Virus record (IMG/VR): IMGVR_UViG_3300008050_000022 | Location: 1 to 64,000 of that record | Direction: 5' to 3' (one strand) | Length of the DNA stretch: 64,000 nt | Source of the DNA: a virus | Shown: one piece after another, positions 305 to 30,235 of the stretch | Layout: every line of letters starts with the position of its first letter | Numbering within the stretch: the first letter of the stretch is position 1 | Made by a program: the position numbers and the translations under genes | Notes under the pieces: model-generated | What the model saw: the letters and a program-made list of their open reading frames with translations, nothing else | Told to the model about the DNA's origin: nothing | Database searches by the model: none

Positions 305-328
305 GTATCTGCCTCCAAATGTGACTAA

Positions 329-358
329 GCCCCCACTCTCCTGCCGGAGGGCGGGGGC
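329..358 (-). terminator. GC-rich stem-loop after the capsid gene
   Basis: Minus strand GCCCCCGCCCTCC-GGCA-GGAGAGTGGGGGC, about 30 nt past the MCP stop; no long U-tract. Confidence 0.55.
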
Positions 359-386
359 CCAGTCTACCCACCGAAGTAGGAGTCTT

Positions 387-1550
387 CTAGAAGATGAAGA
401 CTTCGGGGAACACGCCGCCAGTGGCGATCTTGTTGTTCGTGATCTCGAGCGCGTCCTCGGCACTCGGGATACGCACACCGAAGCCGATATCCGTGGCACC
501 GACCGTGATGGAGCCGGAGTAGAGCTCGAGCTTGGCGACGGCCGAGATGTTGCCGAAGCCCATCCCGATGTCTTCCCAGCTCTGCCACATGATCCGGTTG
601 GCCACCTTGTCGATGTAGAACTTGGTGTCGTTCAGGATGTAGAAGTACCCGAAGAACTCCGGCGCGGCGAAGATGTAGACGTTGCCGTCGCGCAGGATGT
701 TGTTCTTGATCGTGCGGATGACCTTCATCCCCATGACCTGCGAGTACTTGTAGCCGTCGACCACGGTCTCCGACTGCACCTGCGAACCCATGTCCTCCGT
801 GGTCCAGGTCAGGATGTCCGACCAGTCGCTCTCCGTGATCAGCATCCGCTCGGCCTGCAGCCGCTTCTGGATGAGGATCTTGAAGAGGTTGACGAAGTCA
901 GGACGCTGCACCGCACGAACCACGAAGTCGTCAGCAGCGGCGGCCAGGGCCAGGATGCCCTTGACCTTGCCACCACGGAGAAGACCCGTAGCTGCATCGA
1001 CGTCAAGGCCACCCAGGGCGACACCGGCGTTGACGTTGGTGCGGTTGAAGGGGACGGCGAGACCACCGTTGACCTCCGTCTGCATGAACTCGACCATCGA
1101 CTCGAGGTGGATCGTGAACTCGCGGTCCTCGATCTCCTGGATGTCCTTGCCCGAGTTGTCCTCGATCACCTTGGTGATCGGCATGCGGTAGGCCAGCAGC
1201 TCCTGCTCCACCTTCTCGAACTTCTCGCTCGAGATTGTGAAGAAGGCGATGGCGAATCGCGGGGCGTCGATGTAGCGAGCCTCGGGCTCGCCACGGAAGC
1301 CCATGCTCATCGCACGGCTCTGCGGCTCGACCTCTTCGATGCGGATCAGGGTGTCGTGGTTGAGAGACACCTGGCAGTCGGAGGGATCGATCGAGCGAGC
1401 GTTCATCACCTTGCGGCAATACGCTTCCTCTCGAAGGTGGTCACGGATGAACTCGCCTCCGTAGGCGGCCAGCTTGGTGCGGCCCTCGGAAGTTCCAGCC
1501 TCCTCGAAGAAGGTTTCGTTCATCACTCTGGATGCGGCGCTGTCGTACAT
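387..1550 (-). CDS. Major capsid protein (HK97-like fold, inferred)
   Basis: 387 aa, strong SD (AGAAAGGAG), strong GC3 bias, last gene of the protease-scaffold-decoration series; KDIQEIEDREF helix and C-terminal WEDIGMGFGN..AVAK typical of HK97-type capsids. Confidence 0.8.
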   Translation of the reverse strand: MYDSAASRVMNETFFEEAGTSEGRTKLAAYGGEFIRDHLREEAYCRKVMNARSIDPSDCQVSLNHDTLIRIEEVEPQSRAMSMGFRGEPEARYIDAPRFAIAFFTISSEKFEKVEQELLAYRMPITKVIEDNSGKDIQEIEDREFTIHLESMVEFMQTEVNGGLAVPFNRTNVNAGVALGGLDVDAATGLLRGGKVKGILALAAAADDFVVRAVQRPDFVNLFKILIQKRLQAERMLITESDWSDILTWTTEDMGSQVQSETVVDGYKYSQVMGMKVIRTIKNNILRDGNVYIFAAPEFFGYFYILNDTKFYIDKVANRIMWQSWEDIGMGFGNISAVAKLELYSGSITVGATDIGFGVRIPSAEDALEITNNKIATGGVFPEVFIF

Positions 1551-1574
1551 GCCTATCTCCTTTCTATGCCGCGC

Positions 1575-5328: not shown

Positions 5329-7224
5329 CTACACTAGTACTTGGATCGCTGCCCTCACTTCAGAGGGATCGGCGACGGGATGCATGGAATCGTTGCTAAA
5401 CGACCCTGGGCCATCTTGCCCAGTAGTGTCAGCGTTGATCAACCCTCTTCTTGCCTCCGCCGAGATGTAGGCCGTTTTGAGGTAGACGTAAGGTGCTACC
5501 TGGGCCAACACCTCGAGGGGCGAGGCGGTGTGGGAGGACGATTGCTTAATTCCTGCCTGGGAGTCAAGCGTGTCCTGTCTATAGAGCGCCTTTCGGAGCT
5601 CTGGACTGTCGAGGGATTCTTGAATGTGGGGGAGTGCGAGCTCTACCCCTTCCCGGTACGCAGCGTAGCCAGAAGCCAACTTGTCTAGCAGCGGACTGGA
5701 TCTCGGAGTCCAGGATCTCTTCTGTCGAGGAGGGGCCTGGAAGATCATGGTGATCCGCCGCTTCATGACTGGCGGGGCCATCGATCTGGATTCTACATGC
5801 CCCAACAAGGACCGGACCAGATCCATGATCCTACTCTGTGGCATCCCTAGATCTAGCGGCTCTTCCCGGCAACTGCACGACTGATCGAACACTGTGCCTT
5901 CTCGCCGGAAGTGATCTGCCTGACGGCCCATGCCTGCGTGCCGAAGCGCTACGTCCTGGAACTCGTGAGGCTTCAGGATGATCCCTGCCCTCGAGGGGGC
6001 AGCCAAGGCGTCACTCAAAGAGCGGGAACGCGAGAGTCTCCGTAGAGATCTGTCCGGTAGGTCGGGCTCGTGGTCCTCGAGCCGCTTCATCACCTTGTCC
6101 GGTCCGCCGGGAAGACGCTTGATCATCTCACTGAACTTGATCGCAGCCCTCTTGTTTCGCAACTGTTCAGTTGCGGCTACAGCAGCGTCACGGAAATTGT
6201 CTCGAGCTGCAGCTTCCTTAGCCAGATCCATAACAGAGATACGTGCCAGGGGAGGCAAGAGGTTCAGCACCTCCGGCTGCTCCCTCACGAATTCGCGTAC
6301 CTTGCTCTGTACTTCTGGGCGATCCCTCTTGGAAAGGAGCTCCTCCGGCATCCTGTTCAGGATCTCCGATGCCCGCTTTTCCCCGTAGAAGAGCTCACCG
6401 CGTTCTGCAGAAGGCATCGCGATGCCTCCAGGAGAGAACACCCAGGATCGCGTCTGATTGTGCGCCAGCTTGGCCATGACCATGGCAGTTCGATCAGCTC
6501 CGATGATCACGAAACTGTCGTCGAAGAAGTTGGGGTAGTCGTTGTGAACGGCGCAGACAGACCCGTCGTCCAGGACCTTGTTCATCCCGAAGCGAGGATC
6601 TTTGTTGTTGACGTGCTTGCAGTAGCTCGCCTTGGTCTTCGCCAAGTTCCCACACTGCGTGCATCGATCGTACGGAACTCGACAGCCCATCGAGGTAGGC
6701 GGGAAGATCCCCTCCAGAATCTTCCGAACTAGGGGCATGGCCCCCTGCCGCTCACACAGGTCGTGGTTCAGGTCGAAGATCGTCTCGACCCGGTGCATCC
6801 TGGGATTCCAGGAAGCCAGGATGATCCTCCCCAGTGTCTTGCTGGGATCCTTGTTCTGATGATGCTGGAAGATGTGAGCGTTGTAGAAGGTCGGGTACCC
6901 GAACCGGATACCTCTCGCAGCTGACGCCCTGCCCTCGACATCCCACGGAGAGATGGAGGCCATCTTCTCGTGGCCGTTCAGCAAGCCGGCTTCAGGGAAC
7001 GTGTCCCCGTTGACGTTGCTGCCGTAGTACTCGAAGGACCCTAGAGCGTTGTTCAGGACGTAGGTGTGTCCTTGTTCCGGCTCCATCCGCTCGATGAACC
7101 CCTTCACCTCATCCGACAAGGTGTCCGCCCCAGCCATCTTGGCCAAGGGGTACCTTTCCGGGATCAAGTGGGTGAAGGCGCTACCGCTCTCCGACCCCTC
7201 GAAGTGGAGGAGCTTCTCCATCAT
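5329..7224 (-). CDS. Prohead (capsid maturation) protease with Zn-finger
   Basis: N-x-N-G-D-x-F motif, HIFQHH (candidate catalytic His), TSMGC (candidate catalytic Ser) followed by CTQCGN...CKH; upstream of scaffold and capsid genes. Confidence 0.7.
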   Translation of the reverse strand: MMEKLLHFEGSESGSAFTHLIPERYPLAKMAGADTLSDEVKGFIERMEPEQGHTYVLNNALGSFEYYGSNVNGDTFPEAGLLNGHEKMASISPWDVEGRASAARGIRFGYPTFYNAHIFQHHQNKDPSKTLGRIILASWNPRMHRVETIFDLNHDLCERQGAMPLVRKILEGIFPPTSMGCRVPYDRCTQCGNLAKTKASYCKHVNNKDPRFGMNKVLDDGSVCAVHNDYPNFFDDSFVIIGADRTAMVMAKLAHNQTRSWVFSPGGIAMPSAERGELFYGEKRASEILNRMPEELLSKRDRPEVQSKVREFVREQPEVLNLLPPLARISVMDLAKEAAARDNFRDAAVAATEQLRNKRAAIKFSEMIKRLPGGPDKVMKRLEDHEPDLPDRSLRRLSRSRSLSDALAAPSRAGIILKPHEFQDVALRHAGMGRQADHFRREGTVFDQSCSCREEPLDLGMPQSRIMDLVRSLLGHVESRSMAPPVMKRRITMIFQAPPRQKRSWTPRSSPLLDKLASGYAAYREGVELALPHIQESLDSPELRKALYRQDTLDSQAGIKQSSSHTASPLEVLAQVAPYVYLKTAYISAEARRGLINADTTGQDGPGSFSNDSMHPVADPSEVRAAIQVLV

Positions 7225-8928: not shown

Positions 8929-9624
8929 ATGCAGACACCTCTGATCGACAAGCGCACGGCAGCCGAAACTCTAGGCAGAGGATGCCGCAGTGTTGAGCTC
9001 TATGCCAAGCGAGGAATGCTAGCAAGGGTTCGTCGAGGGCATCGAGTCTACTTTCTGCGTGACGAAGTGGAGGGCCTGCGAGAAGAGCTCGACCAGGGCA
9101 GTCCCTCCGCCTCGAACACCGAGATACTACTCCGTCTGAAGCGCTTGGAGGCGAATGTCGAGTTTCTCCTCATGCTGCAAGACGCGAAACGTAGCTCTCT
9201 CCTAACTGAACAAGAGCTACTAGAGCTACTGCCAAACGCTCAAGCAGGGCTAAAGAAGGAGCACTGGTCTGTCGAGGACCTGCTCAAGTGGTACCAGATC
9301 TACACTCGCCTGACCGACGAGGATCTGTACGTCCTGCACAGAGAGCTCGTGAAACGAGGCAGAAGGGGCAGCCATGCCTGGCTGATCCCCTACAAGCTGT
9401 GCGTGACGCAGGTGGCGTATATACGCAAGCATCCTCGGTTCGGTTCCATGTTGGATCTCCAGCGAGCTCACGCTCTGCTACTGAAGGCCCGGAACATCAT
9501 GCGAGATCGAATCCTGCTGGAGTTCGGAGATGAGCTACTGGATGTAGCGGATGCCTACGAGAAGAAGTTCGGAGCTCGTCCTCGTCTACGGGACGAGCTC
9601 ATGGCTTCAATTCTTGCGGGCTGA
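8929..9624 (+). CDS. MerR/excisionase-type HTH DNA-binding protein
   Basis: MQTPLIDKRTAAETLGRGCRSVELYAKRGML...VYFLRDEVE winged HTH then coiled coil; ATG 8929 lies 6 nt after TATGAT. Confidence 0.7.
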   Translation: MQTPLIDKRTAAETLGRGCRSVELYAKRGMLARVRRGHRVYFLRDEVEGLREELDQGSPSASNTEILLRLKRLEANVEFLLMLQDAKRSSLLTEQELLELLPNAQAGLKKEHWSVEDLLKWYQIYTRLTDEDLYVLHRELVKRGRRGSHAWLIPYKLCVTQVAYIRKHPRFGSMLDLQRAHALLLKARNIMRDRILLEFGDELLDVADAYEKKFGARPRLRDELMASILAG

Positions 9625-11364
9625 CGCCTGCGACCCGCGCTGTGGAGCGATGACATCGGGACGGGGGCGGTCGATCATCGAGGCGAGGAAGCAGTACAGG
9701 ATCGAGTGGAACGTGTCGTCCGTGGATCCTGGGGAGCGCTTGTACTCGTTGACCCGACGATGCTCGTTGTACTCGCTGAAGATGTTCAGCATGTCCCTGG
9801 CGTAGGGGTCCTCGAACTCCTCCCACTTGGGAAAGCGGAACACGTTGGCTCGCTTGATCGCGTTGAAAATGTCGGACATCACCTCAGATCTATGAACTAG
9901 CCATCGACGTAGCCTGTCGTCCCAGGCCACCTTCTTCCTCGGTGCCAAGTACTGGTACTTGTGCACTCGAACGGCTCCAAAGGCGCGGATCAGCTCGTCG
10001 TTCTGGTAGAACCCTCCGCCGTAGTCGACTCCGATCAGGCGAATACCCCAAGACCTAACCAAGCCCTTGATCAAGGCCAGCTGCTCCTGCGGCTCTGACT
10101 CCACCCCTGTGAAGCGGTGGACGTAGAAGATCGTGAAGAACTTCCCGATGTACGTCCCCAGCGAGATGACGGTATGACTCTGTTCTCCAGTGCCCCAGTC
10201 GATTCCAGCGTAAATCGGGTTCCTTCCGAGAAGGACCTTGAACTGCTTCATCCACTCGTTGTCGAACATGCGGATGGTCTCGTCGCAGTTCTGAATGATG
10301 TCTGCTCGCACCAGTGGCCGAGTGCCCGAGTCGTAGGAGAGTCCGAGGACCTCGTTGTAGAAGCGGGGTCTCGAGTAGTGCTCGTATTTGTCCAGGATCT
10401 CGTCCCACGGGATCCAGGGGACCATGAGCTGCGGGATTCGGTAGCCCTCGAAGGGCTCCTCGTGCGCCTTGGGCTTCCCCGTAGCCGCCCATTTCGCCTC
10501 AGGGTGCCTGGGGGAGATCTCCCCGCCACAACTCTCGCAGATGAGCCCCTTCTTCCCGAGGTTCTTCTCCCCGAGGATGTTCCAGTAAGCGGCTCGACTG
10601 CCTGCAGTGGGGGTGCCGTGCCTGTAGCAGGGGACCACCCACTCATTCTGCGTAGACCTCTCCGTCCAGTAGTACTCGATCGCGTTGTCGAGAGACTTGG
10701 GCGTGCCTGAGAAGCGGTAGATCTTGTACGGGGAGTGTGAAGCGCACTCGAGGATGACCGGGATGTGGTCGATGTAGATGTCCTGGATCTCGTCCAGCAT
10801 GATCATGTCAGCCGGGATACCTCGAGTACGGTCAGCGTTGTGGAACGCGTACCGCAGAGTGATCTGGCTGCGGTTCATGAACTTCTTGAGGGCCACCGAG
10901 TCTGCTAGACGCTGATCGAGCCAGGCTAGAAGCTCCGTGCTGGTCTCAGTGGGCTCCTTGAGCCTGTCTCTACTGAACGTGTACGTCTGATCCCGTGAGG
11001 GGGAGACGAACAGGGTCTGGAAGCCGGCCAGGATGCAGCAGTACGCCAGGATGATGTTGCCGAGCGACGTGCTCTTCTCGACCTGCCGGCCGCACTTCAG
11101 CAGAACTCGCTTGCTGGGAGTGTCGTAGATCCTTCTGAGGTACCCACGCTCCGCAAAAGAGAACTTCTCCATGCGGGGAGGCTGCCCCTCATCCACTACT
11201 CGCACGTAGATGCCGAACCTGACGAAGGTACTGGGCTTGACTTTCAGGAGAGCTCGACGATCTCCAGCCAAAGCGTCCCGAAAGTAGTCCCGTTGCGAGT
11301 CCTCAAAGTACTCATTCGGAGCCCTCAGCAGGTTGGGCATTCCGATGTTCTGGATCAATTCCAT
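9607..11364 (-). CDS. Terminase large subunit (GpA-like)
   Basis: Walker A KCGRQVEKST, Walker B IMLDEIQD, SGTP coupling motif, nuclease GIDWG and DDTFHS. Confidence 0.9.
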   Translation of the reverse strand: MELIQNIGMPNLLRAPNEYFEDSQRDYFRDALAGDRRALLKVKPSTFVRFGIYVRVVDEGQPPRMEKFSFAERGYLRRIYDTPSKRVLLKCGRQVEKSTSLGNIILAYCCILAGFQTLFVSPSRDQTYTFSRDRLKEPTETSTELLAWLDQRLADSVALKKFMNRSQITLRYAFHNADRTRGIPADMIMLDEIQDIYIDHIPVILECASHSPYKIYRFSGTPKSLDNAIEYYWTERSTQNEWVVPCYRHGTPTAGSRAAYWNILGEKNLGKKGLICESCGGEISPRHPEAKWAATGKPKAHEEPFEGYRIPQLMVPWIPWDEILDKYEHYSRPRFYNEVLGLSYDSGTRPLVRADIIQNCDETIRMFDNEWMKQFKVLLGRNPIYAGIDWGTGEQSHTVISLGTYIGKFFTIFYVHRFTGVESEPQEQLALIKGLVRSWGIRLIGVDYGGGFYQNDELIRAFGAVRVHKYQYLAPRKKVAWDDRLRRWLVHRSEVMSDIFNAIKRANVFRFPKWEEFEDPYARDMLNIFSEYNEHRRVNEYKRSPGSTDDTFHSILYCFLASMIDRPRPDVIAPQRGSQASARKN

Positions 11365-20911: not shown

Positions 20912-23900
20912 TCAGTAGTTGTACGGCTCCTTCCCGGGAGGCTTACCGAACTCCTTTCCGAACGCGATGCCTGGCACAGGGTGAAGCCCGTGCAGGTTAC
21001 TCTCCCACCCCTGGGCGGAGCCCTCCAGGATCGTGCCCTTCAGCTTCTGGTACTGCAACCGAGCCATCCAGTCTTCCTGCATCGCCAGAGGAACTTCGTT
21101 GATGCCCTTGAGGATCGGCTTGTGGAGCGCCGGCTTCTGGCCCAGCTTAGCGGCCTTCCGGTTCTTGGCCGACAGCATAGTTGCTGGGACGATGTCGCCT
21201 CGCATGTACCCCGACTCTCCGGGGTCGCGGACTTCGGTCAGGTTCGCAACGGCTCGGACCACGACTTCCATGTTCTTCCGCTTGACCCCCATCTCCTTGT
21301 ACGCGCCATGCATCTCGTCGGTCAGGTAGTTCCTGACCCTCTCCATGCCGGCCACTTCCAGAAGATCTCGAGGGTTGACCATGCCAGAGCTCAGGGGCTG
21401 CCCCGCCGTCACCTTCAAGTTACCTCCCCGACTCTTGATCAGTGCCAGGTTCTCCCCGAGCTGCCTGTTGCCGGGAATGTAGTGCTCCTGCTCCTTCTCG
21501 TGGCCGTGCCGATCTCGGCCAGCCACGTTGACTCGCCAACCTCCAGCGGGATCCTTCTTGATGCCTCGACTGTTGATGGTGCCGGTGAGCCCTGAGATCG
21601 TCGCAGAACCTCGCAGGTTCCTCGGCATGGTCAAGAGCTTCTGGAGCTTGGTGAAGTCATCCATCTTGTCGCCCTTGGCCTCGACGACACCTCCTGTATG
21701 GAACTTCCTCATGGAGAGCTGCGTAGCAGGTTCCCCAACTCCTTGAGCTGCAATGATGCCGAGGTTCGTACCGGGAGACGGGAGCTGCCCCGAGACGTCC
21801 ACTCCGTAGCACTTGGAGCAGAGCCCCTCCCCATGCTCACACTTGAGCGGAGAACGTACGGAGATCTTCCCCGCCTTAGCGTTCCTCAGCTTGGTCAGTA
21901 CGTCTGGGGTGAGCAGCGTGCCTGAAGGAATCTTCCCTCCCCGAACCTTGATGTCCTGCGCTGCGTAGCGGTCTTGGATCTCGGGATCGTTGACGTCCAG
22001 AGAGATACCGCGACGGGTGCCGCAATCCTCGTCCACTACCACCTGGTTCATGGTGGAGCTGACGATGATCTTAGTCAGGCCGCCAGGCTCACTGGTTCCC
22101 TTCACCTTGGCCAGGGTGCCCATGCGAGCTCCAGACAGGGATGCCCAGTACTCTGCGGTACTCAGTCCCTCAGAGTAGCTCTTCTTCAAGGGGATCGGGA
22201 CTGCCTTGCCCGTGTCGTCTGCTACCAGCACTGGGGCAACTGCGATCTGCTTGAACTGATCCCAGTTACCTCGAGCTCCTGACGAGACCATCTCGAAGAC
22301 CTTGTTGTCGCTCTTCGAGAGCTTGGCCTTGCCTCGCGCATCGATCTTGGGAACTACCTTCATGTACGCCTTCACGATGGCATCGTTCCGGGACATGCCT
22401 CCCTTGCGAAGCGCGGCTACCTCCTTATCCGCTTCCGCGAAGATGGGGTCCTTCACGTCCTTGTGGACCAAGAAGTCCTTGAGCCCTACAGAGAAGACGT
22501 TGTCGTAGGTCTGCTGGTTGCCTAGCTGGTTCAGCTTGTTGACGGACTTGGCGAATACGTCACTGTCCCCCTTAGCCAGTGACGACAAGATCCCCGTCAG
22601 CCCCTTCTTGTCCAGCTTCAGCGACTTGTCACTCAGTACGCGAGCACGCTCTTCCGAGCCCTCAGGCAGGGCGTCGGATAGGAGAAGTCTTCCAGCCGTG
22701 GTAGCTGCGGTGGCAGCAGTCTTCTCTCGGAGACCTCCTACGGAGATCTGATCACTGACCGAGATAGTTCCGTCCTTCAGGGCCTTCAGAGCATCCTTCT
22801 TGTTCGCAAAACGCTTGCCCGTACGCTTACCTATCTGACTCAGCTGGTAGACCCCGAGCTGCGACTCCTGCCGAGGAATGTGCATCAGGGCACCACTAGC
22901 GGGATTCAACAGATGCTTCGAGGGCATCATGCCCTTAGCCTCTAACACCGCCTCCTGAGTCATGGGAACGAAGATGCCCATCTTGTCGCCGTCGAAATCT
23001 GCGTTGTACCCCGCAGTGACTAGCGGGTGGATCTGAATTGCTTTGCCCGAGACGATCTTAGGCTTGAACGCCATGACTCCGTGTCGATGTAGCACGGGAT
23101 CTCGTTTCATGATCACGGGACGGTTTGCCGCCACCTGCTCCAACGCCTTGTCGGCGATGGCCTTATTCTCTTTGATGGCTTTCTGTGCCTTCAGGGGGGT
23201 GTAGCCGAAGCCCTTGACGAGCTCTCGCACTACGAAGGGCTTCATCATCTCCATAGCGGCCTTGCGAGGGATGCCCACCTCATCCAGCCCCATGGACTGC
23301 TCGGGGATGATGGTGGATCGCATCGACAAGTCCTGTCGGCGACCGATGATCTTGCTCTGGAAGTAGCCGTACTTGGGCTGCGTACCCGAGATCGCCTCCA
23401 TCACTCCTCGACGATGCCGACCCTGCAGGTCAGACCCCGTCAGGGTCAGGGCCCTGAGCCCGTCGTACAGACTCGCCCGCATCGGCTGCCTCATGGACTC
23501 GGGGATCCCCTTGTCTGCCTTGAGCTCACGAAGCTTCTTATCCGACAAGGCGATGTCCTTGTACAGGTGGTTGAGATCCTCGGTGTTGAGGTCCCCGTTG
23601 TCCATCACGGTGACGGGACGCATGGACGGGGGGAGTACCGGGACTGCCTTAGTGGTGTACGCCTCCGTGGGAGACATCTTCGCGTCGACTAGGGCCTGGA
23701 GGTACCTGACTCGCTTACGAGCCTTGCTCAACTGGTCCTTCCGTGCCGTCTTCAGATCCTTCTTCGCCTGAGCGAGCTCGGTCTTGGGATCGATCTTCGC
23801 CAAAGCATTGACGACGGCAGTGGGGCCCGACGCGTCGCCGATGGTCTTGGTCCCTGCGATCACTCCGTTCAACTGCCCCTGCTTCAACCCAAGGATGCCG

Positions 23901-26900
23901 CTGATTGCCTTCTCGAAGGTCGGGTTCGGCAGCGGTTCGGACAGCTCCAGATGTGACCACTTCTTGCCATCAGTACCACCAGTCAGCTTGTTGTCGAACA
24001 AGCCTCCCTTTTCGGGGCGGAGGTCCTTGCCTCGCAGCATCCTACCGCCGTTGGGGAGAGCTCCTGCACTTAGCTCCCGCACCTGCTTGTCGGTTAGGGG
24101 TCGCAAGGTCTGCGTAGACCCGTTCTTGTCTACGTTGACTCCCATCACCTTGAGGTAGCTGGTGAACTTGTCGTAGGTGAAGGGAATCTGCGGCGGAGGG
24201 ATGGTCGCCCCCTCCTGCAGACGGGTCCACAGCTCGTCGTTTCGATCCGACTTCAGCGTGGCCATCTCTCTGATGTTGTGTTTGGCCCCGTGCGAGAGCA
24301 TCGCGTTCAGGCCCAACGCTCCGATGGACTGCGCCCCTGTACTTGACTTGGGGATCCCGTCCATGGTGTAGGGGTTGCCCGCTCCACCACCTCGAGGACT
24401 CATGCTCTTGCTGACCTTGTGCTTGAGCTTGAAGATGTACTGTTCGCCGTTCAGCACCTTGCCGAGTACGCGGCCTGTACCTGGGTCTCGAACATCCTCC
24501 TGGTCAGACAGGCCGTGAGCCTTCAAATCCCTCATCACCTTCCTGGTGTAATCCGGCTCGCTCGGGTCGAAGTTGTCTACGACGTACGGCTTGCCTGTCT
24601 TCCGAGCGATCTTCCCGGCTGCGGTCTCTAGCACCTGCCCCAAATTGATGCGGCTGGGGATACCTGCCGGGTTCATGGCGACCTCTAGAGGCTTCCCGTC
24701 CGGAAGCACGACCATCTCGTGATCAGGAATGACTGTAGAGATGATCCCCTTGTTGCCGTGACGTCCCACCAGCTTGTCGCCGACCTGAGCAGGCTCCTCG
24801 GTCTTTACGTGGACCTCTACACCTCGAGAGGTCCGAGCTACCCGAGAGACTGTGCCCTGGTAGCCCTTGTCCCAGACCACCGCCCGGTTTCGGTGATCCT
24901 TGACCATGGACTTCTTCAGGTTCCGAAGCTTCTTCTGCTCGGTGGAGATGTCCTCCCTCTGCAGCTTCGCTACCAGGACGTCCCCCTCCTCGACTCGAGT
25001 ACCTGGCTTGATGATCCCCTCATCATCGAGCTTGTCCCACTGCTCCTTGTTCAGGAAGTCCGAAGAGACGTGGGCTCGGAACTTCTTCTTACTCAGTACC
25101 GTCTGCTTGTCGATGCCGGTCTTGGGCCGATACATGTGCTCGGACGTCAGCTTCTTTGCAGCCGTCTCGGAGATGACGATACCGTCCTCGAAGTTGTAGC
25201 CCTTGAAGGGCATGTACCCGACTCGAAGGTTCTTACCTAGCGCGAACTCCCCTCCCTTGGTGAAGTTCGTATCCGCTAGGAGCTCCCCCTTCTTCACCTT
25301 CTGCCCCACCTTGGCGGTTGTGTCCGCCTTGATGAATGCGTCGTCCTGGTTCAAGGGGAAGTCGTTGTAGATCTGAACTTCGTGAATCTTGCCCTTGGCA
25401 TCCTTCACGTTGATCGAGTCTTCGTCGATGGAGACCACCGTCCCGTGAACGGGAGACGCGTGAGAGTTGAACGCGCCCATCACCTTCTCGAAGGTGACGT
25501 TCTTGTTCCCTGTCGCCGACTGCACCAAGGGAGCCTCTCGATGCTTCAGTCCTACAGCCTGTTCCTGCATCCGCGAAGCCGTCATGGCTCGGTTGCTCTG
25601 GTTGTTCTGGAGGAACGGGATCAGGTTCGTCGGCAGGGAGTACATCCCCTTGGTGGAGACCATCACGTGGGTGACGTCTCCGTAGGGGCGGGCCTCGATC
25701 TCGTTACTCTTGGAGGCTACGGTCACCTCCTTGCCCTTTGGAAGAGGCCTCCCACCCTTCCAGTCCACCTGGTCCGGGAACGCCACCACAGCTGCGTCGA
25801 ACTGGGCAGGGGACAGCTCTTCCAGCTTCCCGGTCTTCCGGTTGTACGCCTTGGTGAAGAGCTCCTTGCCTTTTTTCCTGGCGCCTAGAGGCAGCTGCAG
25901 CGTGATGCCTGTCTTCTCCCCTTCCGGAGTGGGGATGGGATCGATGAACCCCAGGTGACTGGGATTGATCCGGACAGCGTCCTCTGGCACGGACTGAATG
26001 TCCCCAATACCGCCAGGGCCCATGATGGTTGTGCGCATGTGCCCCGAGACGAAGTCCAGCGGGTTCGTCTGCGTGGGCATGGGGGCTAGAGCTGTAGAGA
26101 AGAAGGACTTGAGCGGCTTGTTGAACACTGCGGGGCTCACTACGTCCCGAACACTGTCCTTGACGTCCACCGTCTGCTTGAGTCTGCGGGTGATGTCCCA
26201 CGTACCCCTCTTGAGTCGATCTGCCAGGTGATCTTCAGCCGACAGCAGGTCCTTGAAGATCAAAGACTCTCGATCGTCCGCCTTCACCTTGCCTCTGGCC
26301 AGATCCAGCAGCTTGCCAGACGAGCGGAGCATGGCCTCCCCGTTGACCTCCGCGTACTCCTTGCCCAACGTGACCTTCGTGCTGTCTGGGCGGAGCTTGG
26401 CGGTGCCGAAGATCTCTCCTGCTCGTAGCCGGGCTTCTGGCAATGTCTTCGCGGTCTTGCCAGACGTCTTGGCCAGCAGCTTGTTCAAGCTCTGCAGCTG
26501 CTTGGCCTCTCCTCCGTACTGCTTCACGGAGGAGTCGTAGATGTCCTTGCCCCACAACTTCCTGATCTCGGCGTCAGATCTGCCCAGTGCTTTGAGTACT
26601 GGGTACAGCCCGATGTCTCGGGTGCCATCTACCTCGACCTGAAACTTCCGAGTCTTCGGATCGAAGTACGTGTTGAAGCGGGAAGCCTTCGAGCCTTCCC
26701 ACCTCTCGAGGTTCCAGTGAGCGTTGAGCTCCCCGGCCTCGTTCTCTCGGTGGTACGCACCTGCCTTGAGACGAAACTGGTTCTCTATCTGCCTCTCACG
26801 GCCGTCCACGATGTACGAGTAGCGCCTCGTGATCTTGGGAATGCGGGCTACTGTGATGACCTGTCGGTCGATCTCCTTGCCCGTCTTCTTGTCCTTGAGT

Positions 26901-27115
26901 GAGATCTCTGCCTTGAGCGGGACATCCCAGCTCCGGCCCTTCAACTTCGAGTCCTGCTGCGACTTGATGTCGTCGAGGCTCTTCGAGTCGTCTACCCAGA
27001 CCTTGTGCATCTCCAAAGTGCGGTGACTGCCCTCGAAGGGGAAGTGCGAGGAGACGGACTCCACTGCTCGAGTCTTCAAGGATTCGAACGTGCTCTCGGG
27101 ATCCAGCTGCGCCAT
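20912..27115 (-). CDS. DNA-directed RNA polymerase, fused beta + beta-prime, single chain (probably virion-associated)
   Basis: Beta motifs TPEG, NRAM..RMQEQAV, GYNFEDG, GDKLVGRHGNKG, MNPAGIPSR; beta-prime motifs RDPVLHR, YNADFDGD, SGARG, GEPATQLSMRKFH, RSPLKC..C..CYG; no stop between them. Confidence 0.95.
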   Translation of the reverse strand: MAQLDPESTFESLKTRAVESVSSHFPFEGSHRTLEMHKVWVDDSKSLDDIKSQQDSKLKGRSWDVPLKAEISLKDKKTGKEIDRQVITVARIPKITRRYSYIVDGRERQIENQFRLKAGAYHRENEAGELNAHWNLERWEGSKASRFNTYFDPKTRKFQVEVDGTRDIGLYPVLKALGRSDAEIRKLWGKDIYDSSVKQYGGEAKQLQSLNKLLAKTSGKTAKTLPEARLRAGEIFGTAKLRPDSTKVTLGKEYAEVNGEAMLRSSGKLLDLARGKVKADDRESLIFKDLLSAEDHLADRLKRGTWDITRRLKQTVDVKDSVRDVVSPAVFNKPLKSFFSTALAPMPTQTNPLDFVSGHMRTTIMGPGGIGDIQSVPEDAVRINPSHLGFIDPIPTPEGEKTGITLQLPLGARKKGKELFTKAYNRKTGKLEELSPAQFDAAVVAFPDQVDWKGGRPLPKGKEVTVASKSNEIEARPYGDVTHVMVSTKGMYSLPTNLIPFLQNNQSNRAMTASRMQEQAVGLKHREAPLVQSATGNKNVTFEKVMGAFNSHASPVHGTVVSIDEDSINVKDAKGKIHEVQIYNDFPLNQDDAFIKADTTAKVGQKVKKGELLADTNFTKGGEFALGKNLRVGYMPFKGYNFEDGIVISETAAKKLTSEHMYRPKTGIDKQTVLSKKKFRAHVSSDFLNKEQWDKLDDEGIIKPGTRVEEGDVLVAKLQREDISTEQKKLRNLKKSMVKDHRNRAVVWDKGYQGTVSRVARTSRGVEVHVKTEEPAQVGDKLVGRHGNKGIISTVIPDHEMVVLPDGKPLEVAMNPAGIPSRINLGQVLETAAGKIARKTGKPYVVDNFDPSEPDYTRKVMRDLKAHGLSDQEDVRDPGTGRVLGKVLNGEQYIFKLKHKVSKSMSPRGGGAGNPYTMDGIPKSSTGAQSIGALGLNAMLSHGAKHNIREMATLKSDRNDELWTRLQEGATIPPPQIPFTYDKFTSYLKVMGVNVDKNGSTQTLRPLTDKQVRELSAGALPNGGRMLRGKDLRPEKGGLFDNKLTGGTDGKKWSHLELSEPLPNPTFEKAISGILGLKQGQLNGVIAGTKTIGDASGPTAVVNALAKIDPKTELAQAKKDLKTARKDQLSKARKRVRYLQALVDAKMSPTEAYTTKAVPVLPPSMRPVTVMDNGDLNTEDLNHLYKDIALSDKKLRELKADKGIPESMRQPMRASLYDGLRALTLTGSDLQGRHRRGVMEAISGTQPKYGYFQSKIIGRRQDLSMRSTIIPEQSMGLDEVGIPRKAAMEMMKPFVVRELVKGFGYTPLKAQKAIKENKAIADKALEQVAANRPVIMKRDPVLHRHGVMAFKPKIVSGKAIQIHPLVTAGYNADFDGDKMGIFVPMTQEAVLEAKGMMPSKHLLNPASGALMHIPRQESQLGVYQLSQIGKRTGKRFANKKDALKALKDGTISVSDQISVGGLREKTAATAATTAGRLLLSDALPEGSEERARVLSDKSLKLDKKGLTGILSSLAKGDSDVFAKSVNKLNQLGNQQTYDNVFSVGLKDFLVHKDVKDPIFAEADKEVAALRKGGMSRNDAIVKAYMKVVPKIDARGKAKLSKSDNKVFEMVSSGARGNWDQFKQIAVAPVLVADDTGKAVPIPLKKSYSEGLSTAEYWASLSGARMGTLAKVKGTSEPGGLTKIIVSSTMNQVVVDEDCGTRRGISLDVNDPEIQDRYAAQDIKVRGGKIPSGTLLTPDVLTKLRNAKAGKISVRSPLKCEHGEGLCSKCYGVDVSGQLPSPGTNLGIIAAQGVGEPATQLSMRKFHTGGVVEAKGDKMDDFTKLQKLLTMPRNLRGSATISGLTGTINSRGIKKDPAGGWRVNVAGRDRHGHEKEQEHYIPGNRQLGENLALIKSRGGNLKVTAGQPLSSGMVNPRDLLEVAGMERVRNYLTDEMHGAYKEMGVKRKNMEVVVRAVANLTEVRDPGESGYMRGDIVPATMLSAKNRKAAKLGQKPALHKPILKGINEVPLAMQEDWMARLQYQKLKGTILEGSAQGWESNLHGLHPVPGIAFGKEFGKPPGKEPYNY

Positions 27116-27215
27116 GGGGGTAATCCTAGCTCTGTCTCACCGCTAATGGGCTGTCGTGGCCCGGTGACAATGTGCCTGCACTTGGAGAGATAAGGGAAGT
27201 AGAAAGGAAGTAACC

Positions 27216-27335
27216 ATGCCTGATGACAAGACCGAGACCTCCGCTTCCCAGTTCAGCTCCGCCATCGAGGAGGCCATCTACGGCTCCTCGACGGAGGAGG
27301 AGAAGAAGGAGCAGAAGGAAGAAGAGAAGGAGTAA
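27216..27335 (+). CDS. 39-aa acidic microprotein (not in ORF track)
   Basis: MPDDKTETSASQFSSAIEEAIYGSSTEEEKKEQKEEEKE; SD AGGAAG; follows ATAAG at 27190. Confidence 0.6.
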   Translation: MPDDKTETSASQFSSAIEEAIYGSSTEEEKKEQKEEEKE

Positions 27336-27337
27336 TC

Positions 27338-27448
27338 ATGCCGCTGATTTTCGGAGCCGGCGTCGCCCTCGGTCTCGTGCTCTATGCACGAGACCAGTGC
27401 TGGTTCGGCATGGCTCGAACCGCGAAGCACTTGAAGAAGGATGAGTGA
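27338..27448 (+). CDS. 36-aa membrane-anchored microprotein (not in ORF track)
   Basis: MPLIFGAGVALGLVLYARDQCWFGMARTAKHLKKDE; SD AGGAG; overlaps next ATG. Confidence 0.5.
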   Translation: MPLIFGAGVALGLVLYARDQCWFGMARTAKHLKKDE

Positions 27449-27800
27449 CGATCCCCGTCTAGCGTATTGCCCGCTCCTCGTCCTGGCTTCCGAGCCGGGG
27501 CGTAGGAGCGGGCGGTGCCCGGATCCCCGAGATTGCTCTTCTTGCATTTACTTCCAGGAGGTCCTTGGGGATCTGGGGGTACTGGAGGAGGTCCTCTGGA
27601 TCTGTCCTCGTTGCTTACCTACCGGTCGGCAAGCTAGCGGCTTCACGCTCCTGGGGCACTACTCAGAAGAAGAGTGCGCTGGGTGCGAGGGGATCAACAG
27701 TCTGTGCCAGGCCTGCGTAGAACCAGAGGCATTGTCCCAGAAACAGTGGAGGCACCTCGTAACCCACACAGCCTCGGAGATGTTCGAGAAGGAGGACTAG
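27441..27800 (+). CDS. Cys-rich hypothetical protein
   Basis: 119 aa with CSSC, CPRC, CAGC, CQAC. Confidence 0.6.
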   Translation: MSDDPRLAYCPLLVLASEPGRRSGRCPDPRDCSSCIYFQEVLGDLGVLEEVLWICPRCLPTGRQASGFTLLGHYSEEECAGCEGINSLCQACVEPEALSQKQWRHLVTHTASEMFEKED

Positions 27801-28141
27801 TGTACTGCGTCTACTGCCAGGAGGAGTTCACATGGGGAGAGGATGCGGTCGAAATCCGCCCAGGAAGGGTAGAGGTGAGCTCCCGAAGCCTGGGCCCTGC
27901 CTTCATCGCCGACGAGCCTGACGCAGAGCTCATCCATGTGGGCTGTATCGCCCACCACTTTCTACCCGATGAGGAAGGGGAGCTTCGAGAAGCTCTACGA
28001 GACGAGAAGATCGACGGAGTGGGGGAGCTGTTCCAGGAGTACCTGGACAAGGACGTCATCCCCCGTATCGAGGAGCCGGAAGCTCCGACACAGCCGGCAC
28101 CTAGAGGGGGGCGGAATCGCTTTCGCACACGTCGGAGGTAA
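27800..28141 (+). CDS. Zn-finger protein (CxxC...HxxC)
   Basis: GTG 27800 after SD GGAGG; YCVYC...IHVGC; Arg-rich tail. Confidence 0.6.
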   Translation: MYCVYCQEEFTWGEDAVEIRPGRVEVSSRSLGPAFIADEPDAELIHVGCIAHHFLPDEEGELREALRDEKIDGVGELFQEYLDKDVIPRIEEPEAPTQPAPRGGRNRFRTRRR

Positions 28142-28145
28142 CTGG

Positions 28146-28170
28146 TCGGCACACGGGCTCCGTGTGCCGA
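28146..28170. terminator. Hairpin between convergent genes
   Basis: TCGGCACACGG-GCT-CCGTGTGCCGA. Confidence 0.65.
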
Positions 28171-28243
28171 TCTACCTTCCCCTTCTGTTCTTATCTATCC
28201 CGTCCAGCATCTCCTGAAAGGAGTCAGCATTGCTCCTGTGGTA

Positions 28244-30235
28244 TCACACGATCGCCGAGCCTATGTCTCTCCTGGGCGGCTTCGCGCTCGGGAGAGGCGA
28301 CTGGTTCGGGTCCAAGGGGTCTCTCTTGCCTCCCTTGGACTGCATGATCTGAAGCACCAGGTTCAGGAAGTTGGGCTGCTCCATCTTCATCTTCTGCATC
28401 CACGCGTAGGCCGTCTTGGGGTCCTGCTTCAAGAGGTCGTCGAGCATCTTCGACACTCTCTTAGCTACGTACAACACGTTCATGCTCTGACCACCCGCTC
28501 CGCTAGCCTGGTTGATCGGAGACTGGGCCTCCTGCGGGACGCCCTCTGCTGGCGCCTGTCCTGCGTTCTCTGGGTTGATGCTGCCTCCCGAAGACGGAAG
28601 TGCTCCGGCTGCCTCAGGCGGCGGCTGGCGAGCCTCGGCGCCCGGTGTAGCCCCGCCCAGCATGTCCTGACTTGCGGCCTGCATGTACCGCTGTGAAACC
28701 TGCTGAGCCTCTGCCTGAGCAATGGCGGACGCAACCTGCATCCGTCGCTGATCGTCGGAAGTCCTCCTGCCCTCGCCACGCTTGAGCCTCTGCTCTGCTT
28801 CGTAGTTCTCTCCCAGCTCTCGGAGCAGGGTGTGATCAGAGACCTTGCCACCCTGGTTCATCTGGAAGTAGATCATCGTCCGCTGCAGGTCGTCGGCCAT
28901 CTTGAAGCGCTTGAACTTCTTATCGACCTTCGGCCAGCCCATGAAGGCGCCGATGCTGTCGAACACCCAGTTCGTCAGCCCCTGCGTCTCCGTGCGGTAG
29001 TTGATGAACTCGTTCTCGAGGTTCCGCATCGACACGTTGGTGCCGCTGTACGACATCCCGCCGAAGATGAACTCCTGTGGGGCATGCATGCCTGCGATGA
29101 TCTGCTCTGCCCAAACCCGATGCTCCTGGTGGAGCACCATGGCTCGGCCCTGCCCACCAATGACCTGGTGCCCCACGGGCATGGGGAGGATGGGCATGTA
29201 GTTGGGATCACGCCTCCACCGCTCGATCTCCTCTTCCATGGTGTTCTTCCACCCCTGGAGAGGCACCGTGGTGTAGGGATCAGAGGTGCCGGACCCGGCC
29301 TGCGGGAAGAGGACTCTCAGGGGCACGATATGCTCCCTGGCGATCATCTCCTGGCCCTTCTTGAGCACCTGCAGGTAGTACGAGTCCTTGAGCACTGGGA
29401 GGATGCGAGGCATCCCCCACCCCTGGTCCTTACCCGCTAGAGTCGGACGCTTGAGGTGGAACACCTGTCCAGGCGAGAACTTGAGGGCCAGCTTCTTCTT
29501 GGCGGCCTTCAAGAAGATCGAGGGGATCCTCTCGATGACGTGCGGCTTGCCTACCAGTAGCTGCCCTCGAGTACGAGCACTCATCTGATAGAAGTACTGG
29601 GTGTCTCCGGTCTCCTCGTTGTACTGGATGGAGATCCTCTCCGGATCCCACCGGATCAACCGGATCTGGTGAGGGGAGCGGAGAGCGATGTCCTTTTGCT
29701 TAGCCTTCCCTCGAGAGTTGCACTTCGGGCACTTGAGCACGAAGCCCATGTCCCGCCACTGGTAGAACTTCCTCAGCTGCTTGACGGGCTCACTGTGCTT
29801 GCAGTTGCCGCAGATCAGGTACTTGACGAAGGGGTAGTGGATCGAGACGAAGGCGTTGCCGTAGCACTGGTAGTCCAGCCCCGCCTCTACAAGGAACTGG
29901 CGGTACCCCAGGATGTCATCCTTGAGGTGAGCGTACTTGTCCTCTACTGCCGCGTGCTCGCTGGTGAACACCAGGTCGGTGATCGGGTACGACGCCATCT
30001 TGTAGCAGACGGCGTTCACCAGGGGATTCGTGAGGAAGTAGTACCGGCAGTACTTGAAGAGCTTCTTCATCGTGGCGGGCAAGTACGTATGCGCGCCGTC
30101 GAAGAAGGGGTTGGGGTAGGCCACGCCTCCCCGACCACTGGTGTTCATCCGGAGATCGCCGAAGCCCCCAGACCCCCCAGAGCCTAGACCATCGGTGATC
30201 CCTCCCGGGAAACTGCCGAAGTCGAAACCGGCCAT
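28244..30235 (-). CDS. Portal protein with a Zn-ribbon insertion
   Basis: YFLTNPLV..., DYQCYGNAF, FHLKRP..GWGMP motifs; Q/P-rich C-terminal tail; CGNC...CPKC insert. Confidence 0.75.
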   Translation of the reverse strand: MAGFDFGSFPGGITDGLGSGGSGGFGDLRMNTSGRGGVAYPNPFFDGAHTYLPATMKKLFKYCRYYFLTNPLVNAVCYKMASYPITDLVFTSEHAAVEDKYAHLKDDILGYRQFLVEAGLDYQCYGNAFVSIHYPFVKYLICGNCKHSEPVKQLRKFYQWRDMGFVLKCPKCNSRGKAKQKDIALRSPHQIRLIRWDPERISIQYNEETGDTQYFYQMSARTRGQLLVGKPHVIERIPSIFLKAAKKKLALKFSPGQVFHLKRPTLAGKDQGWGMPRILPVLKDSYYLQVLKKGQEMIAREHIVPLRVLFPQAGSGTSDPYTTVPLQGWKNTMEEEIERWRRDPNYMPILPMPVGHQVIGGQGRAMVLHQEHRVWAEQIIAGMHAPQEFIFGGMSYSGTNVSMRNLENEFINYRTETQGLTNWVFDSIGAFMGWPKVDKKFKRFKMADDLQRTMIYFQMNQGGKVSDHTLLRELGENYEAEQRLKRGEGRRTSDDQRRMQVASAIAQAEAQQVSQRYMQAASQDMLGGATPGAEARQPPPEAAGALPSSGGSINPENAGQAPAEGVPQEAQSPINQASGAGGQSMNVLYVAKRVSKMLDDLLKQDPKTAYAWMQKMKMEQPNFLNLVLQIMQSKGGKRDPLDPNQSPLPSAKPPRRDIGSAIV

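What the first reader, a model, noticed from the sequence alone, without database searches (positions are those of the whole stretch)
20912..27115. Minimal single-chain beta-beta-prime RNA polymerase encoded among head genes
Seen: one 2067-aa ORF holds the conserved catalytic motifs of bacterial beta followed by beta-prime, much shorter than the roughly 2750 aa of E. coli beta plus beta-prime. No alpha, omega or sigma gene is in the window, and the gene heads a unit of virion proteins. Known: phiKZ-like RNAPs are split and highly diverged, and caudoviruses with deep-branching multi-subunit RNAPs have been reported from metagenomes, so the enzyme class may not be new. Inference: a virion-packaged enzyme that may be alpha- and sigma-independent and transcribes early genes.
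Basis: partly seen in the sequence, partly recalled or inferred. Interest (0 to 1): 0.75.

Follow-up and report, generated by a model that had tools for sequence, protein, structure and literature searches.

The report
Single-chain phage RNA polymerase beside portal
An uncultured large phage encodes both big subunits of a bacterial-type RNA polymerase as one slimmed-down 2067-residue protein next to its portal gene; it belongs to a very large, barely studied phage family that has its own sigma factor, no alpha or omega, and probably carries the enzyme in the virus particle.

Summary
Window 20912-27115 (-) is one intact 2067-aa ORF with a bacterial beta module (1-997), a 3-6-residue linker and a beta' module (1001-2067). 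Catalytic motifs are intact, and both halves fold like bacterial beta and beta'.

The fusion is not an assembly error. More than 120 metagenomic clusters share the ~2050-aa architecture. A query spanning only the junction hits 995 clusters (50% identity) at E<=1e-10.

The enzyme is 682 aa shorter than Salmonella beta+beta'. About 460 aa of that are lineage-specific inserts. The only widely conserved element lost is the beta' N-terminal zinc-binding domain.

In an LG+G4 tree the phage sequences form one clade outside 26 bacterial enzymes. Salmonella phage Arash and Vibrio phage D69 are sister to the fused forms.

In Arash the orthologues are the top-scoring virion proteins by mass spectrometry, and portal-RNAP synteny is conserved, so packaging is likely. 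No alpha or omega is found in complete relatives.

Sigma independence is contradicted. The same genome, outside the window, encodes a sigma factor orthologous to Arash's virion sigma Gp10.

A conserved K-x-A-A site lies exactly where Arash's gene is split. It may be a prohead-protease cut, which is untested.

This scan met the same family before on other genomes.

The parts
20912..27115 (-). Whole ORF, 2067 aa: single-chain beta-beta' RNA polymerase (P0001)
   Evidence: homologues of the same length
24125..27115 (-). beta module, residues 1-997. Compared with E. coli numbering it lacks beta 1-26, SI1 227-344, 396-415, SI2 934-1045 and 1125-1178.
   Evidence: MAFFT against Salmonella rpoB; AF2 model pLDDT 82 with Foldseek TM 0.73 to bacterial beta
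24107..24124 (-). Junction, residues 998-1003 (N-G-S-T-Q-T). The beta C-terminus runs straight into beta' at about E. coli residue 19.
   Evidence: a junction-spanning query finds 995 clusters at E<=1e-10
20915..24115 (-). beta' module, residues 1001-2067. It lacks the ZBD, E. coli 140-170, 705-718, SI3 957-1132 and the C-terminal tail.
   Evidence: AF2 pLDDT 81 with Foldseek TM 0.81 to bacterial beta'
26012..26092 (-). Rifampicin-pocket region, residues 342-368. E. coli D516, H526 and S531 are replaced by T, G and T.
   Evidence: alignment; the drug insensitivity is an inference
24746..24781 (-). beta active-site loop GDKxxGRHGNKG, residues 779-790
   Evidence: invariant in alignment A1
23951..23998 (-). 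Site of the missing beta' zinc-binding domain, residues 1040-1055. The four Cys of E. coli 70-88 have no counterpart.
   Evidence: the protein has only 4 Cys, all in the second zinc site
23438..23578 (-). beta' clamp helices (coiled coil), residues ~1180-1226: the main sigma docking site, retained
   Evidence: helices 180-200 and 206-226 of the beta' model at pLDDT about 90; alignment
22985..23005 (-). Catalytic NADFDGD, residues 1371-1377
22697..22735 (-). Variable insert with K1465-T-A-A, residues 1461-1473. It lies at the exact position where Arash and D69 split the gene: candidate prohead-protease site.
22052..22159 (-). Bridge helix, residues ~1653-1688
   Evidence: long helix 653-688 in the model; conserved motif
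21809..22024 (-). Second zinc site retained: Cys 1698, 1759, 1766, 1769
   Evidence: at least 90% conserved in A2
21680..21763 (-). Trigger loop, residues ~1785-1812, without an SI3 insert
28244..30235 (-). Portal protein, the next upstream minus-strand gene. The portal-RNAP order is conserved in Arash, D69 and L010.
   Evidence: 29% identity, E 3e-78, to Arash Gp204 portal
5329..7224 (-). Prohead maturation protease candidate
   Evidence: phrog_18299, E 5e-6; 37% identity to Arash Gp222
387..1550 (-). Major capsid protein
   Evidence: 26% identity, E 1e-27, to Arash Gp226 MCP
9607..11364 (-). Large terminase
   Evidence: phrog_675, E 6e-55; PF05876

Best explanation
The ORF encodes an active bacterial-type (two double-psi-barrel) RNA polymerase core in which beta and beta' are one polypeptide. 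All lineage-specific inserts and the beta' N-terminal zinc-binding domain are absent. It is the standard enzyme of a very large clade of uncultured tailed phages; related contigs run to about 200 kb, and this record is only about 56% complete. Inferred steps follow. The covalent fusion replaces the assembly role of the alpha dimer, so no alpha or omega is needed. Promoter recognition comes from a phage-encoded group-3-like sigma factor, not from the core alone. The enzyme is made late with the head proteins, loaded into the capsid, and injected with the DNA. There it starts phage transcription independently of, and probably insensitively to inhibitors of, the host polymerase. In this phage and about half of its relatives, the chain may also be cut inside the prohead at a K-x-A-A site (residue 1465). 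That would give the same two pieces that phage Arash encodes as two genes.
For: Identity and integrity:
- Pfam domain order runs beta then beta'.
- GDKxxGRHGNKG, NADFDGD, bridge helix, trigger loop, second zinc site, clamp helices and flap are conserved.
- The AF2 halves have pLDDT 81-82 and superpose on bacterial beta' and beta at TM 0.81 and 0.73.

The fusion is real and ancient:
- More than 120 clusters at 44-99% identity have the same length, on contigs up to about 200 kb.
- Independent IMG/VR loci and a contig in a cyanobacterial MAG carry it too.
- 995 clusters span the junction at E<=1e-10, and 360 at E<=1e-30.
- Arash and D69 share the beta-beta' junction.

Not bacterial:
- 17 phage sequences separate from 26 bacterial ones with SH-aLRT 100.
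- All NCBIfam rpoB, rpoC and rpoBC scores fall far below their cut-offs.

Sigma:
- A 263-aa protein at record 77472-78263 matches Sigma70_r3 above cut-off and phrog_351 at E 4e-13.
- It aligns to SigB/F/G over positions 7-224 of 227 and is 31% identical to Arash Gp10.

No alpha or omega:
- None found in this record, in the complete Arash and D69 genomes, or in two IMG/VR relatives. The same searches found them in all 14 control genomes.

Packaging:
- In Arash virions Gp206 gives 128 peptides and 3516 spectra, Gp216 40 and 1210, and sigma Gp10 24 and 467 (PMC10585845).
- The gene lies inside the head module just after portal, and that order is conserved.

Cleavage idea:
- The Arash split maps to residues 1460/1463.
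- 21 of 43 homologues carry an insert there, and all 21 contain K-x-[AGS]-[AGSP].
- K-x-A-[AGS] occurs at 5.7 per 1000 aa in head-module proteins against 0.6-1.1 elsewhere.
- It lies in the first 40 residues of 9 of 19 head genes against 2 of 54 others, one of which is the sigma factor.
- The polymerase has exactly one such motif, at 1465.
Against: - Nothing was measured for this phage. Packaging is inferred from a relative with 31-32% identity.
- The Arash virion list holds 116 proteins, including ribonucleotide reductases, so some carry-over of abundant non-structural proteins is likely.
- The polymerase has no N-terminal K-x-A leader like other head proteins, so how it would be targeted to the capsid is unknown.
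- Half of the family has no insert or motif at the split site, so cleavage cannot be general.
- The record is only about 56% complete. A divergent alpha, omega or second polymerase could lie in the missing part, and use of host alpha cannot be excluded by sequence.
- The sigma gene sits among probable tail genes, about 50 kb away.
- The tree used LG+G4 without an archaeal or eukaryotic outgroup and without mReC sequences. The site-heterogeneous run did not finish.
Confidence: 0.7

Rival explanations
1. The enzyme is not packaged. It is a non-virion polymerase made during infection for middle or late genes (like phiKZ nvRNAP), and its place among head genes is incidental. Early genes would be read by the host polymerase, perhaps redirected by the phage sigma.
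For: There is no N-terminal leader motif on the polymerase. The Arash virion list is long and includes clear non-structural enzymes. Only one polymerase set exists per genome, so it must also serve late transcription.
Against: Gp206 is the top protein in Arash virions, with 128 unique peptides and 100% coverage, against 2-11 peptides for the ribonucleotide reductases. The portal-RNAP order is conserved. A gene expressed with head genes makes little sense for an enzyme needed early, unless it is carried over in the particle.
Confidence: 0.15
2. One reading: a self-sufficient single chain that needs neither alpha nor any sigma and recognises promoters by itself.
For: No sigma, alpha or omega lies in the 64-kb window. 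Single-chain two-barrel enzymes such as YonO work alone (cited in PMC7481178).
Against: A sigma70-family gene is present in the same record and is orthologous to the sigma found in Arash virions. The clamp helices and flap tip are retained.
Confidence: 0.08
3. A hybrid enzyme: the fused chain recruits host alpha2 and/or omega after injection or synthesis.
For: Overall beta and beta' folds are bacterial. The alpha-binding surfaces were not examined here.
Against: Related phages infect or co-occur with very different hosts: Salmonella, Vibrio, and a contig in a cyanobacterial MAG. The enzymes are only about 30% identical to any bacterial one, which makes a conserved fit to host alpha unlikely. 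A packaged enzyme must work on arrival. The beta' C-terminal region, to which omega binds in bacteria by my recollection, is replaced by a clade-specific tail.
Confidence: 0.12
4. A recent capture of a bacterial fused rpoBC (Helicobacter or Wolbachia type), or an assembly or gene-calling artefact that joins two genes.
For: Natural bacterial rpoBC fusions exist (NCBIfam NF007172 and NF011417 are the top-scoring models).
Against: The scores are 577 and 553 bits against cut-offs of 5372 and 4632. The phage clade is separated from all sampled bacteria. Hundreds of independent assemblies and two cultured-phage lineages share the junction.
Confidence: 0.02

Closest known systems
RNA polymerase of Salmonella phage Arash (Gp206 + Gp216, with sigma Gp10; OQ632216.1, PMC10585845) and of Vibrio phages D69, D148 and D181
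   Same: Homologous over the full length at 31-32% identity. Same beta-to-beta' fusion junction. Same portal / small gap / RNAP order. Orthologous sigma factor. No alpha or omega. They are the sister group in the tree. In Arash the enzyme and the sigma are found in virions.
   Different: In the cultured phages beta' is split into two genes at the position equivalent to residue ~1461, separated by 2 to 9 other genes. Here the chain is continuous and carries a K-T-A-A insert at that point. Those papers only annotate the genes; no biochemistry exists.
mReC: T4-like Caudovirales with deep-branching multisubunit RNAP (Weinheimer & Aylward 2020, PMC7481178)
   Same: Phage-encoded, readily recognisable bacterial-like beta and beta', found mainly in metagenomes. 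They are compact (beta ~1000-1400 aa, beta' ~900-1200 aa) and branch outside cellular clades.
   Different: Every mReC entry in their tables has separate beta and beta' genes; none is ~2050 aa. mReC capsids and terminases are PF07068 and PF03237. Here the MCP is Arash-like (that relative's MCP hits PF05065 weakly) and TerL is PF05876/phrog_675. The paper does not mention virions or sigma. The phylogenetic relation to mReC was not tested.
phiKZ and AR9 jumbo-phage virion and non-virion RNAPs
   Same: Phage-encoded two-barrel enzymes without alpha or omega. One set is packaged and injected, which gives host-independent, rifampicin-resistant transcription (PMC7598289, PMC13282480).
   Different: Those enzymes are split into 4-5 polypeptides, are highly diverged, come in two sets, and use no sigma70-family protein. 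This one is a single chain, a single set, with about 30% identity to bacterial enzymes and its own sigma.
Natural bacterial rpoB-rpoC fusions (Helicobacter and Wolbachia type; NCBIfam NF007172, NF011417)
   Same: Same head-to-tail order. By my recollection the beta C-terminus and beta' N-terminus lie close together in bacterial RNAP structures, which would allow such a fusion.
   Different: The bacterial fusions are ~2840-2890 aa, keep the ZBD, and work with alpha2 and omega. The scores here are about ten-fold below the family cut-offs.
crAss-like phage gp66 and YonO single-chain two-barrel RNAPs
   Same: One polypeptide carrying both barrels; the crAss enzyme is virion-associated (my recollection for the latter point).
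   Different: Those show no recognisable similarity to COG0085 or COG0086 (PMC7481178). This protein matches Pfam Rpb1 and Rpb2 domains at E down to 1e-57.

Membership tests
Two-barrel multisubunit-type RNAP catalytic core (bacterial beta/beta' architecture) | beta' barrel with the Mg-binding NADFDGD motif | tested here: met
   residues 1371-1377; invariant in A2
Two-barrel multisubunit-type RNAP catalytic core (bacterial beta/beta' architecture) | beta barrel with the two active-site lysines (GDKxxGRHGNKG) | tested here: met
   residues 779-790; invariant in A1
Two-barrel multisubunit-type RNAP catalytic core (bacterial beta/beta' architecture) | Overall beta and beta' folds, with bridge helix, trigger loop, clamp helices and flap | tested here: met
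   AF2 models at pLDDT 81-82; Foldseek E 4e-66 and 2e-71, TM 0.81 and 0.73, to bacterial chains
Bacterial rpoB / rpoC equivalogs (NCBIfam TIGR02013, TIGR02386) | Score above the curated cut-off | tested here: not met
   350 against 801 bits, and 560 against 963 bits
Bacterial rpoB / rpoC equivalogs (NCBIfam TIGR02013, TIGR02386) | beta' N-terminal zinc-binding domain (four Cys) | tested here: not met
   deleted in this protein and in the three other clade members aligned
Bacterial fused rpoBC (NF007172, NF011417) | Score above cut-off and placement among bacteria | tested here: not met
   577 against 5372 and 553 against 4632 bits; outside all 26 sampled bacteria
Arash/D69-type phage RNAP system | Full-length homology with a shared beta-beta' junction | tested here: met
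   32% identity over 18-1460 and 25% over 1463-2057
Arash/D69-type phage RNAP system | Gene placed directly after the portal gene; orthologous Gp10-like sigma in the genome | tested here: met
Arash/D69-type phage RNAP system | beta' split into two genes | tested here: not met
   the chain is continuous here and in more than 120 relatives
Arash/D69-type phage RNAP system | Polymerase and sigma present in virions | not testable with these tools
   known only for Arash (PMC10585845)
mReC (PMC7481178) | Separate beta and beta' genes | tested here: not met
mReC (PMC7481178) | MCP of PF07068 type and TerL of PF03237 type | tested here: not met
   TerL hits PF05876 and phrog_675; the window's MCP has no Pfam hit, and Arash's homologous MCP hits only PF05065 weakly
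mReC (PMC7481178) | RNAP inside the mReC clade of their tree | not tested
phiKZ/AR9-type phage RNAPs | beta and beta' each split into several polypeptides; two sets; no sigma70-family factor | tested here: not met
   single chain, one copy in the record, and a sigma is present

The most novel reading that the evidence does not exclude
A complete bacterial-type holoenzyme travels in the capsid. It would consist of a single-chain, alpha- and omega-free beta-beta' core plus a co-packaged phage sigma that carries the head-protein K-x-A-A leader. In about half of the family the core would be matured by the prohead protease at a dedicated K-x-A-A linker, at the very site that sister phages have turned into a gene split. 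On this reading, proteolysis and gene fission are interchangeable routes to the same two-piece enzyme, and covalent fusion has replaced alpha as the assembly platform.
Probability: 0.3. Interest if true: 0.78.

Novelty: new variant of a known kind. Interest (0 to 1): 0.6.

Why it matters
Bacterial RNA polymerase is thought to need the alpha dimer to assemble beta and beta'. Here is a natural, abundant enzyme family (about a thousand 50%-identity clusters) that seems to do without alpha and omega. It lacks the beta' zinc-binding domain and every lineage-specific insert, yet it keeps sigma-type initiation.

Such an enzyme would be a compact model for several questions. One is what the core really requires. 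Another is how a 230-kDa enzyme is packed into and ejected from a capsid. It could also serve as an orthogonal, probably rifampicin-insensitive, sigma-programmable transcription system.

It also adds a third major lineage of phage two-barrel polymerases, beside the phiKZ/AR9 type and mReC. That bears on arguments about the age of viral polymerases. The only published trace I found is the annotation and virion proteome of phage Arash.

Tried and rejected
- **Site-heterogeneous tree.** The LG+C20 PMSF run on 44 rows x 2113 columns did not finish in two 300-s runs. I fell back to LG+G4.
- **Downstream ORFs.** 17906-20206, 16764-17909 and 14476-16755 have no match among 50,697 cultured-phage records and no PHROG. 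The Atlas gave only a weak glycosyltransferase lead for one and nothing for the other.
- **Sigma detection.** Pfam Sigma70_r2 fails to find the sigma. It was found through r3, PHROGs and NCBIfam.
- **Second sigma.** Arash Gp196 and helicase Gp217 have no counterpart in this partial record.
- **Rhizobium phages.** The RHph_Y65 type has only a beta'-like gene detectable with this query, and it sits on a long branch on the bacterial side of the tree. I rejected it as a close relative.
- **mReC membership.** Rejected on gene architecture and on the capsid and terminase families.
- **Promoters and terminators.** Sigma-70 promoter-like and terminator-like sites around the gene do not exceed chance.
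- **The 1.1-kb spacer.** Rfam and repeat scans found nothing.
- **N-terminal leader.** An N-terminal capsid-targeting leader on the polymerase itself is rejected. Its N-terminus is the conserved beta N-terminal motif and has no K-x-A.

Full report
**Observation.** The minus strand of window 20912-27115 holds one uninterrupted ORF of 2067 codons.
- Pfam places RNA_pol_Rpb2_3 and Rpb2_6 (E 1.6e-57) at residues 349-912. Rpb1 domains 1 to 5 follow at 1111-1972.
- PHROGs gives two long families of unknown function (phrog_24349 and phrog_25354, E to 1e-127) plus weaker 'RNA polymerase beta subunit' families.
- The window is the first 64 kb of a 105,937-bp IMG/VR viral record that CheckV rates 56% complete.

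**The fusion is real.**
- The word-indexed search returned more than 120 clusters at 44-99% identity. They cover 100% of the query at 2030-2110 aa, on contigs up to about 200 kb. Several are longer because of LAGLIDADG or intein domains.
- Four IMG/VR loci carry the same fused gene at 41% identity. A 162-kb contig binned with a Leptolyngbyaceae MAG carries it at 46% identity.
- A 191-residue query spanning only the junction (residues 930-1120) was scored against 1.84 billion representatives. It found 995 clusters at E<=1e-10 and 360 at E<=1e-30. Nearly all of the best 150 match in one stretch; seven match in two.
- Two cultured lineages, Salmonella phage Arash and Vibrio phages D69, D148 and D181, share the junction.

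**Anatomy.** I aligned the protein with Salmonella rpoB and rpoC (E. coli numbering) and with compact bacterial enzymes.
- Beta ends at about residue 997. A six-residue linker follows, and beta' begins at about E. coli residue 19.
- Absent from beta: residues 1-26, SI1 (227-344), 396-415, SI2 (934-1045) and 1125-1178.
- Absent from beta': residues 1-18, the zinc-binding domain (64-95), 140-170, 705-718, SI3 (957-1132) and the last 42 residues.
- About 460 of the 682 missing residues are therefore inserts that many bacteria also lack.
- The protein is still about 200-250 aa shorter than the most compact bacterial pairs I sampled, at about 2270-2330 aa.
- The one widely conserved bacterial element lost is the zinc-binding domain. 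The protein has four cysteines in all, and they form the second zinc site at 1698, 1759, 1766 and 1769.
- Retained: the beta active-site loop, NADFDGD, lid and clamp helices, bridge helix, trigger loop and a divergent flap tip.
- AlphaFold2 models of the two halves, each built on 43-sequence alignments, reach pLDDT 82 and 81. Foldseek ranks bacterial beta (TM 0.73) and beta' (TM 0.81) first.
- The rifampicin pocket is rewritten: D516 to T, H526 to G, S531 to T. I infer insensitivity to the drug; this is not measured.

**Relationship to cellular enzymes.**
- All NCBIfam rpoB, rpoC and fused rpoBC models score far below their cut-offs.
- An LG+G4 tree of 44 concatenated beta plus beta' rows (1975 columns) puts the 17 phage sequences on one side of a branch with SH-aLRT 100. 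All 26 bacterial pairs lie on the other side: Patescibacteria, Bacillota, Pseudomonadota, Planctomycetota and Cyanobacteria.
- The phage branch joins at the unresolved base of the bacterial subtree.
- Arash plus D69 are sister to the 15 fully fused sequences.
- Caveats: no outgroup, no mReC sequences, and the mixture-model run did not finish.

**Partners.**
- No alpha (PF01000, PF01193) or omega (PF01192) is detectable in this record, in the complete genomes of Arash and D69, or in two IMG/VR relatives. The same searches found them in all 14 control genomes.
- A sigma factor is present outside the window, at record 77472-78263 (-), 263 aa. It matches Sigma70_r3 above cut-off, region 4 weakly, and phrog_351 'RNA polymerase sigma factor' at E 4e-13. 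It aligns nearly end to end with the SigB/F/G model.
- This sigma is 31% identical (E 3e-26) to Arash Gp10. This contradicts the proposed sigma independence.

**Packaging.**
- The gene lies in the head module. On the minus strand the order is portal (28244-30235; E 3e-78 to Arash portal), a 1.1-kb gap, the polymerase, six tightly packed ORFs, TerL, the protease candidate (5329-7224) and the MCP (387-1550).
- The portal-polymerase order recurs in Arash, D69 and L010.
- In the Arash virion proteome Gp206 is the most detected protein (128 unique peptides, 3516 spectra). Gp216 gives 40 peptides and 1210 spectra, and sigma Gp10 gives 24 and 467 (PMC10585845).
- That list is long (116 proteins), so the evidence is strong but not clean.

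**A possible processing site.**
- Arash Gp206 aligns to residues 18-1460 and Gp216 to 1463-2057.
- At that point this protein has a short insert containing K1465-T-A-A.
- Among 43 fused homologues, 21 have an insert there and all 21 contain K-x-[AGS]-[AGSP]. The other 22 have no insert.
- The same K-x-A-[AGS] motif is five- to nine-fold enriched in head-module proteins of this phage. It lies within the first 40 residues of 9 of 19 of them, against 2 of 54 other proteins. One of those two is the sigma factor.
- Relatives without the insert still show the motif on head proteins.
- The polymerase itself has the motif only once, at 1465.
- This fits a prohead-protease site that would yield Arash-like pieces. 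No cleavage has been observed.
- The site lies about 35 residues before the cyanobacterial RpoC1/RpoC2 boundary.

**Literature.**
- The mReC paper lists only separate beta and beta' genes and different capsid and terminase families.
- Two reviews of jumbo-phage polymerases, and a comparative genomic survey of 224 jumbo phages, do not mention a fused, sigma-using type.
- I found no description beyond the Arash annotation.
- Earlier reports of this scan describe the same family on other genomes.

**Verdict.** This is a genuine, intact single-chain bacterial-type polymerase of a very large, essentially uncharacterised phage family. It is most likely virion-delivered and sigma-dependent. Independence from alpha and omega, and proteolytic maturation, remain to be tested.

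Noticed in passing
window 387-34659, minus-strand head module: K-x-A-[AGS] occurs at 5.7 per 1000 aa in head-module proteins against 0.6-1.1 elsewhere. It lies in the first 40 residues of 9 of 19 head genes. Head proteins of relatives L010 and L008 show it too. It is a candidate prohead-protease or targeting motif.
   Followed up: partly
outside the window: record G000 77472-78263 (-) = L004:13472-14263: A divergent group-3-like sigma factor, orthologous to Arash virion sigma Gp10. It carries H-K-L-A-A at residues 7-11, the same motif as the head proteins.
   Followed up: partly
homologues P0008, P0019, P0029, P0034, P0047, P0090 and others: Many family members are 2400-2900 aa or longer because LAGLIDADG, Hom_end or intein domains interrupt the polymerase (Pfam columns; lengths up to 4739 aa).
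   Followed up: no
L017/L098 (contig C46 of a Leptolyngbyaceae MAG, 162,553 bp): A phage-like contig with a 2066-aa fused polymerase (46% identity) is binned in a cyanobacterial MAG that has its own rpoB, rpoC1 and rpoC2 elsewhere. This is either mis-binning or a hint at the host.
   Followed up: no
window 27116-28243: The 1.1-kb gap between portal and polymerase has no convincing minus-strand gene. A 39-aa acidic plus-strand ORF (27216-27335) has a strong ribosome-binding site. A 155-aa plus-strand ORF (27674-28141) has a C-x-x-C pair. They may form a small divergent unit.
   Followed up: partly
window 17906-20206 (-): A 766-aa protein two genes downstream of the polymerase has a weak GT-B glycosyltransferase (PF04101) signal in its C-terminal half: Pfam E 0.004 and Atlas score 0.87.
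   Followed up: partly
window 11412, 34733, 41053, 46388 (+): GGYATAAG occurs 4 times, all on the plus strand, against 1.1 expected (4 of 100 shuffles reach 4). Two copies (34733, 46388) precede plus-strand replication-gene units, one (11412) lies just ahead of plus-strand ORFs beside the terminase gene, and one (41053) is inside a gene. It resembles a FliA-type -10 element.
   Followed up: partly
window 219-1973 (+) versus 387-1550 (-): The longest ORF here (584 aa, plus strand) is probably spurious. The real gene is the 387-aa capsid protein on the opposite strand.
   Followed up: yes
loci L023, L026, L028, L036, L046: MAGs labelled Gammaproteobacteria or Pseudomonadales have RNAP genes that group with Patescibacteria in the tree. 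The bin labels look wrong.
   Followed up: no
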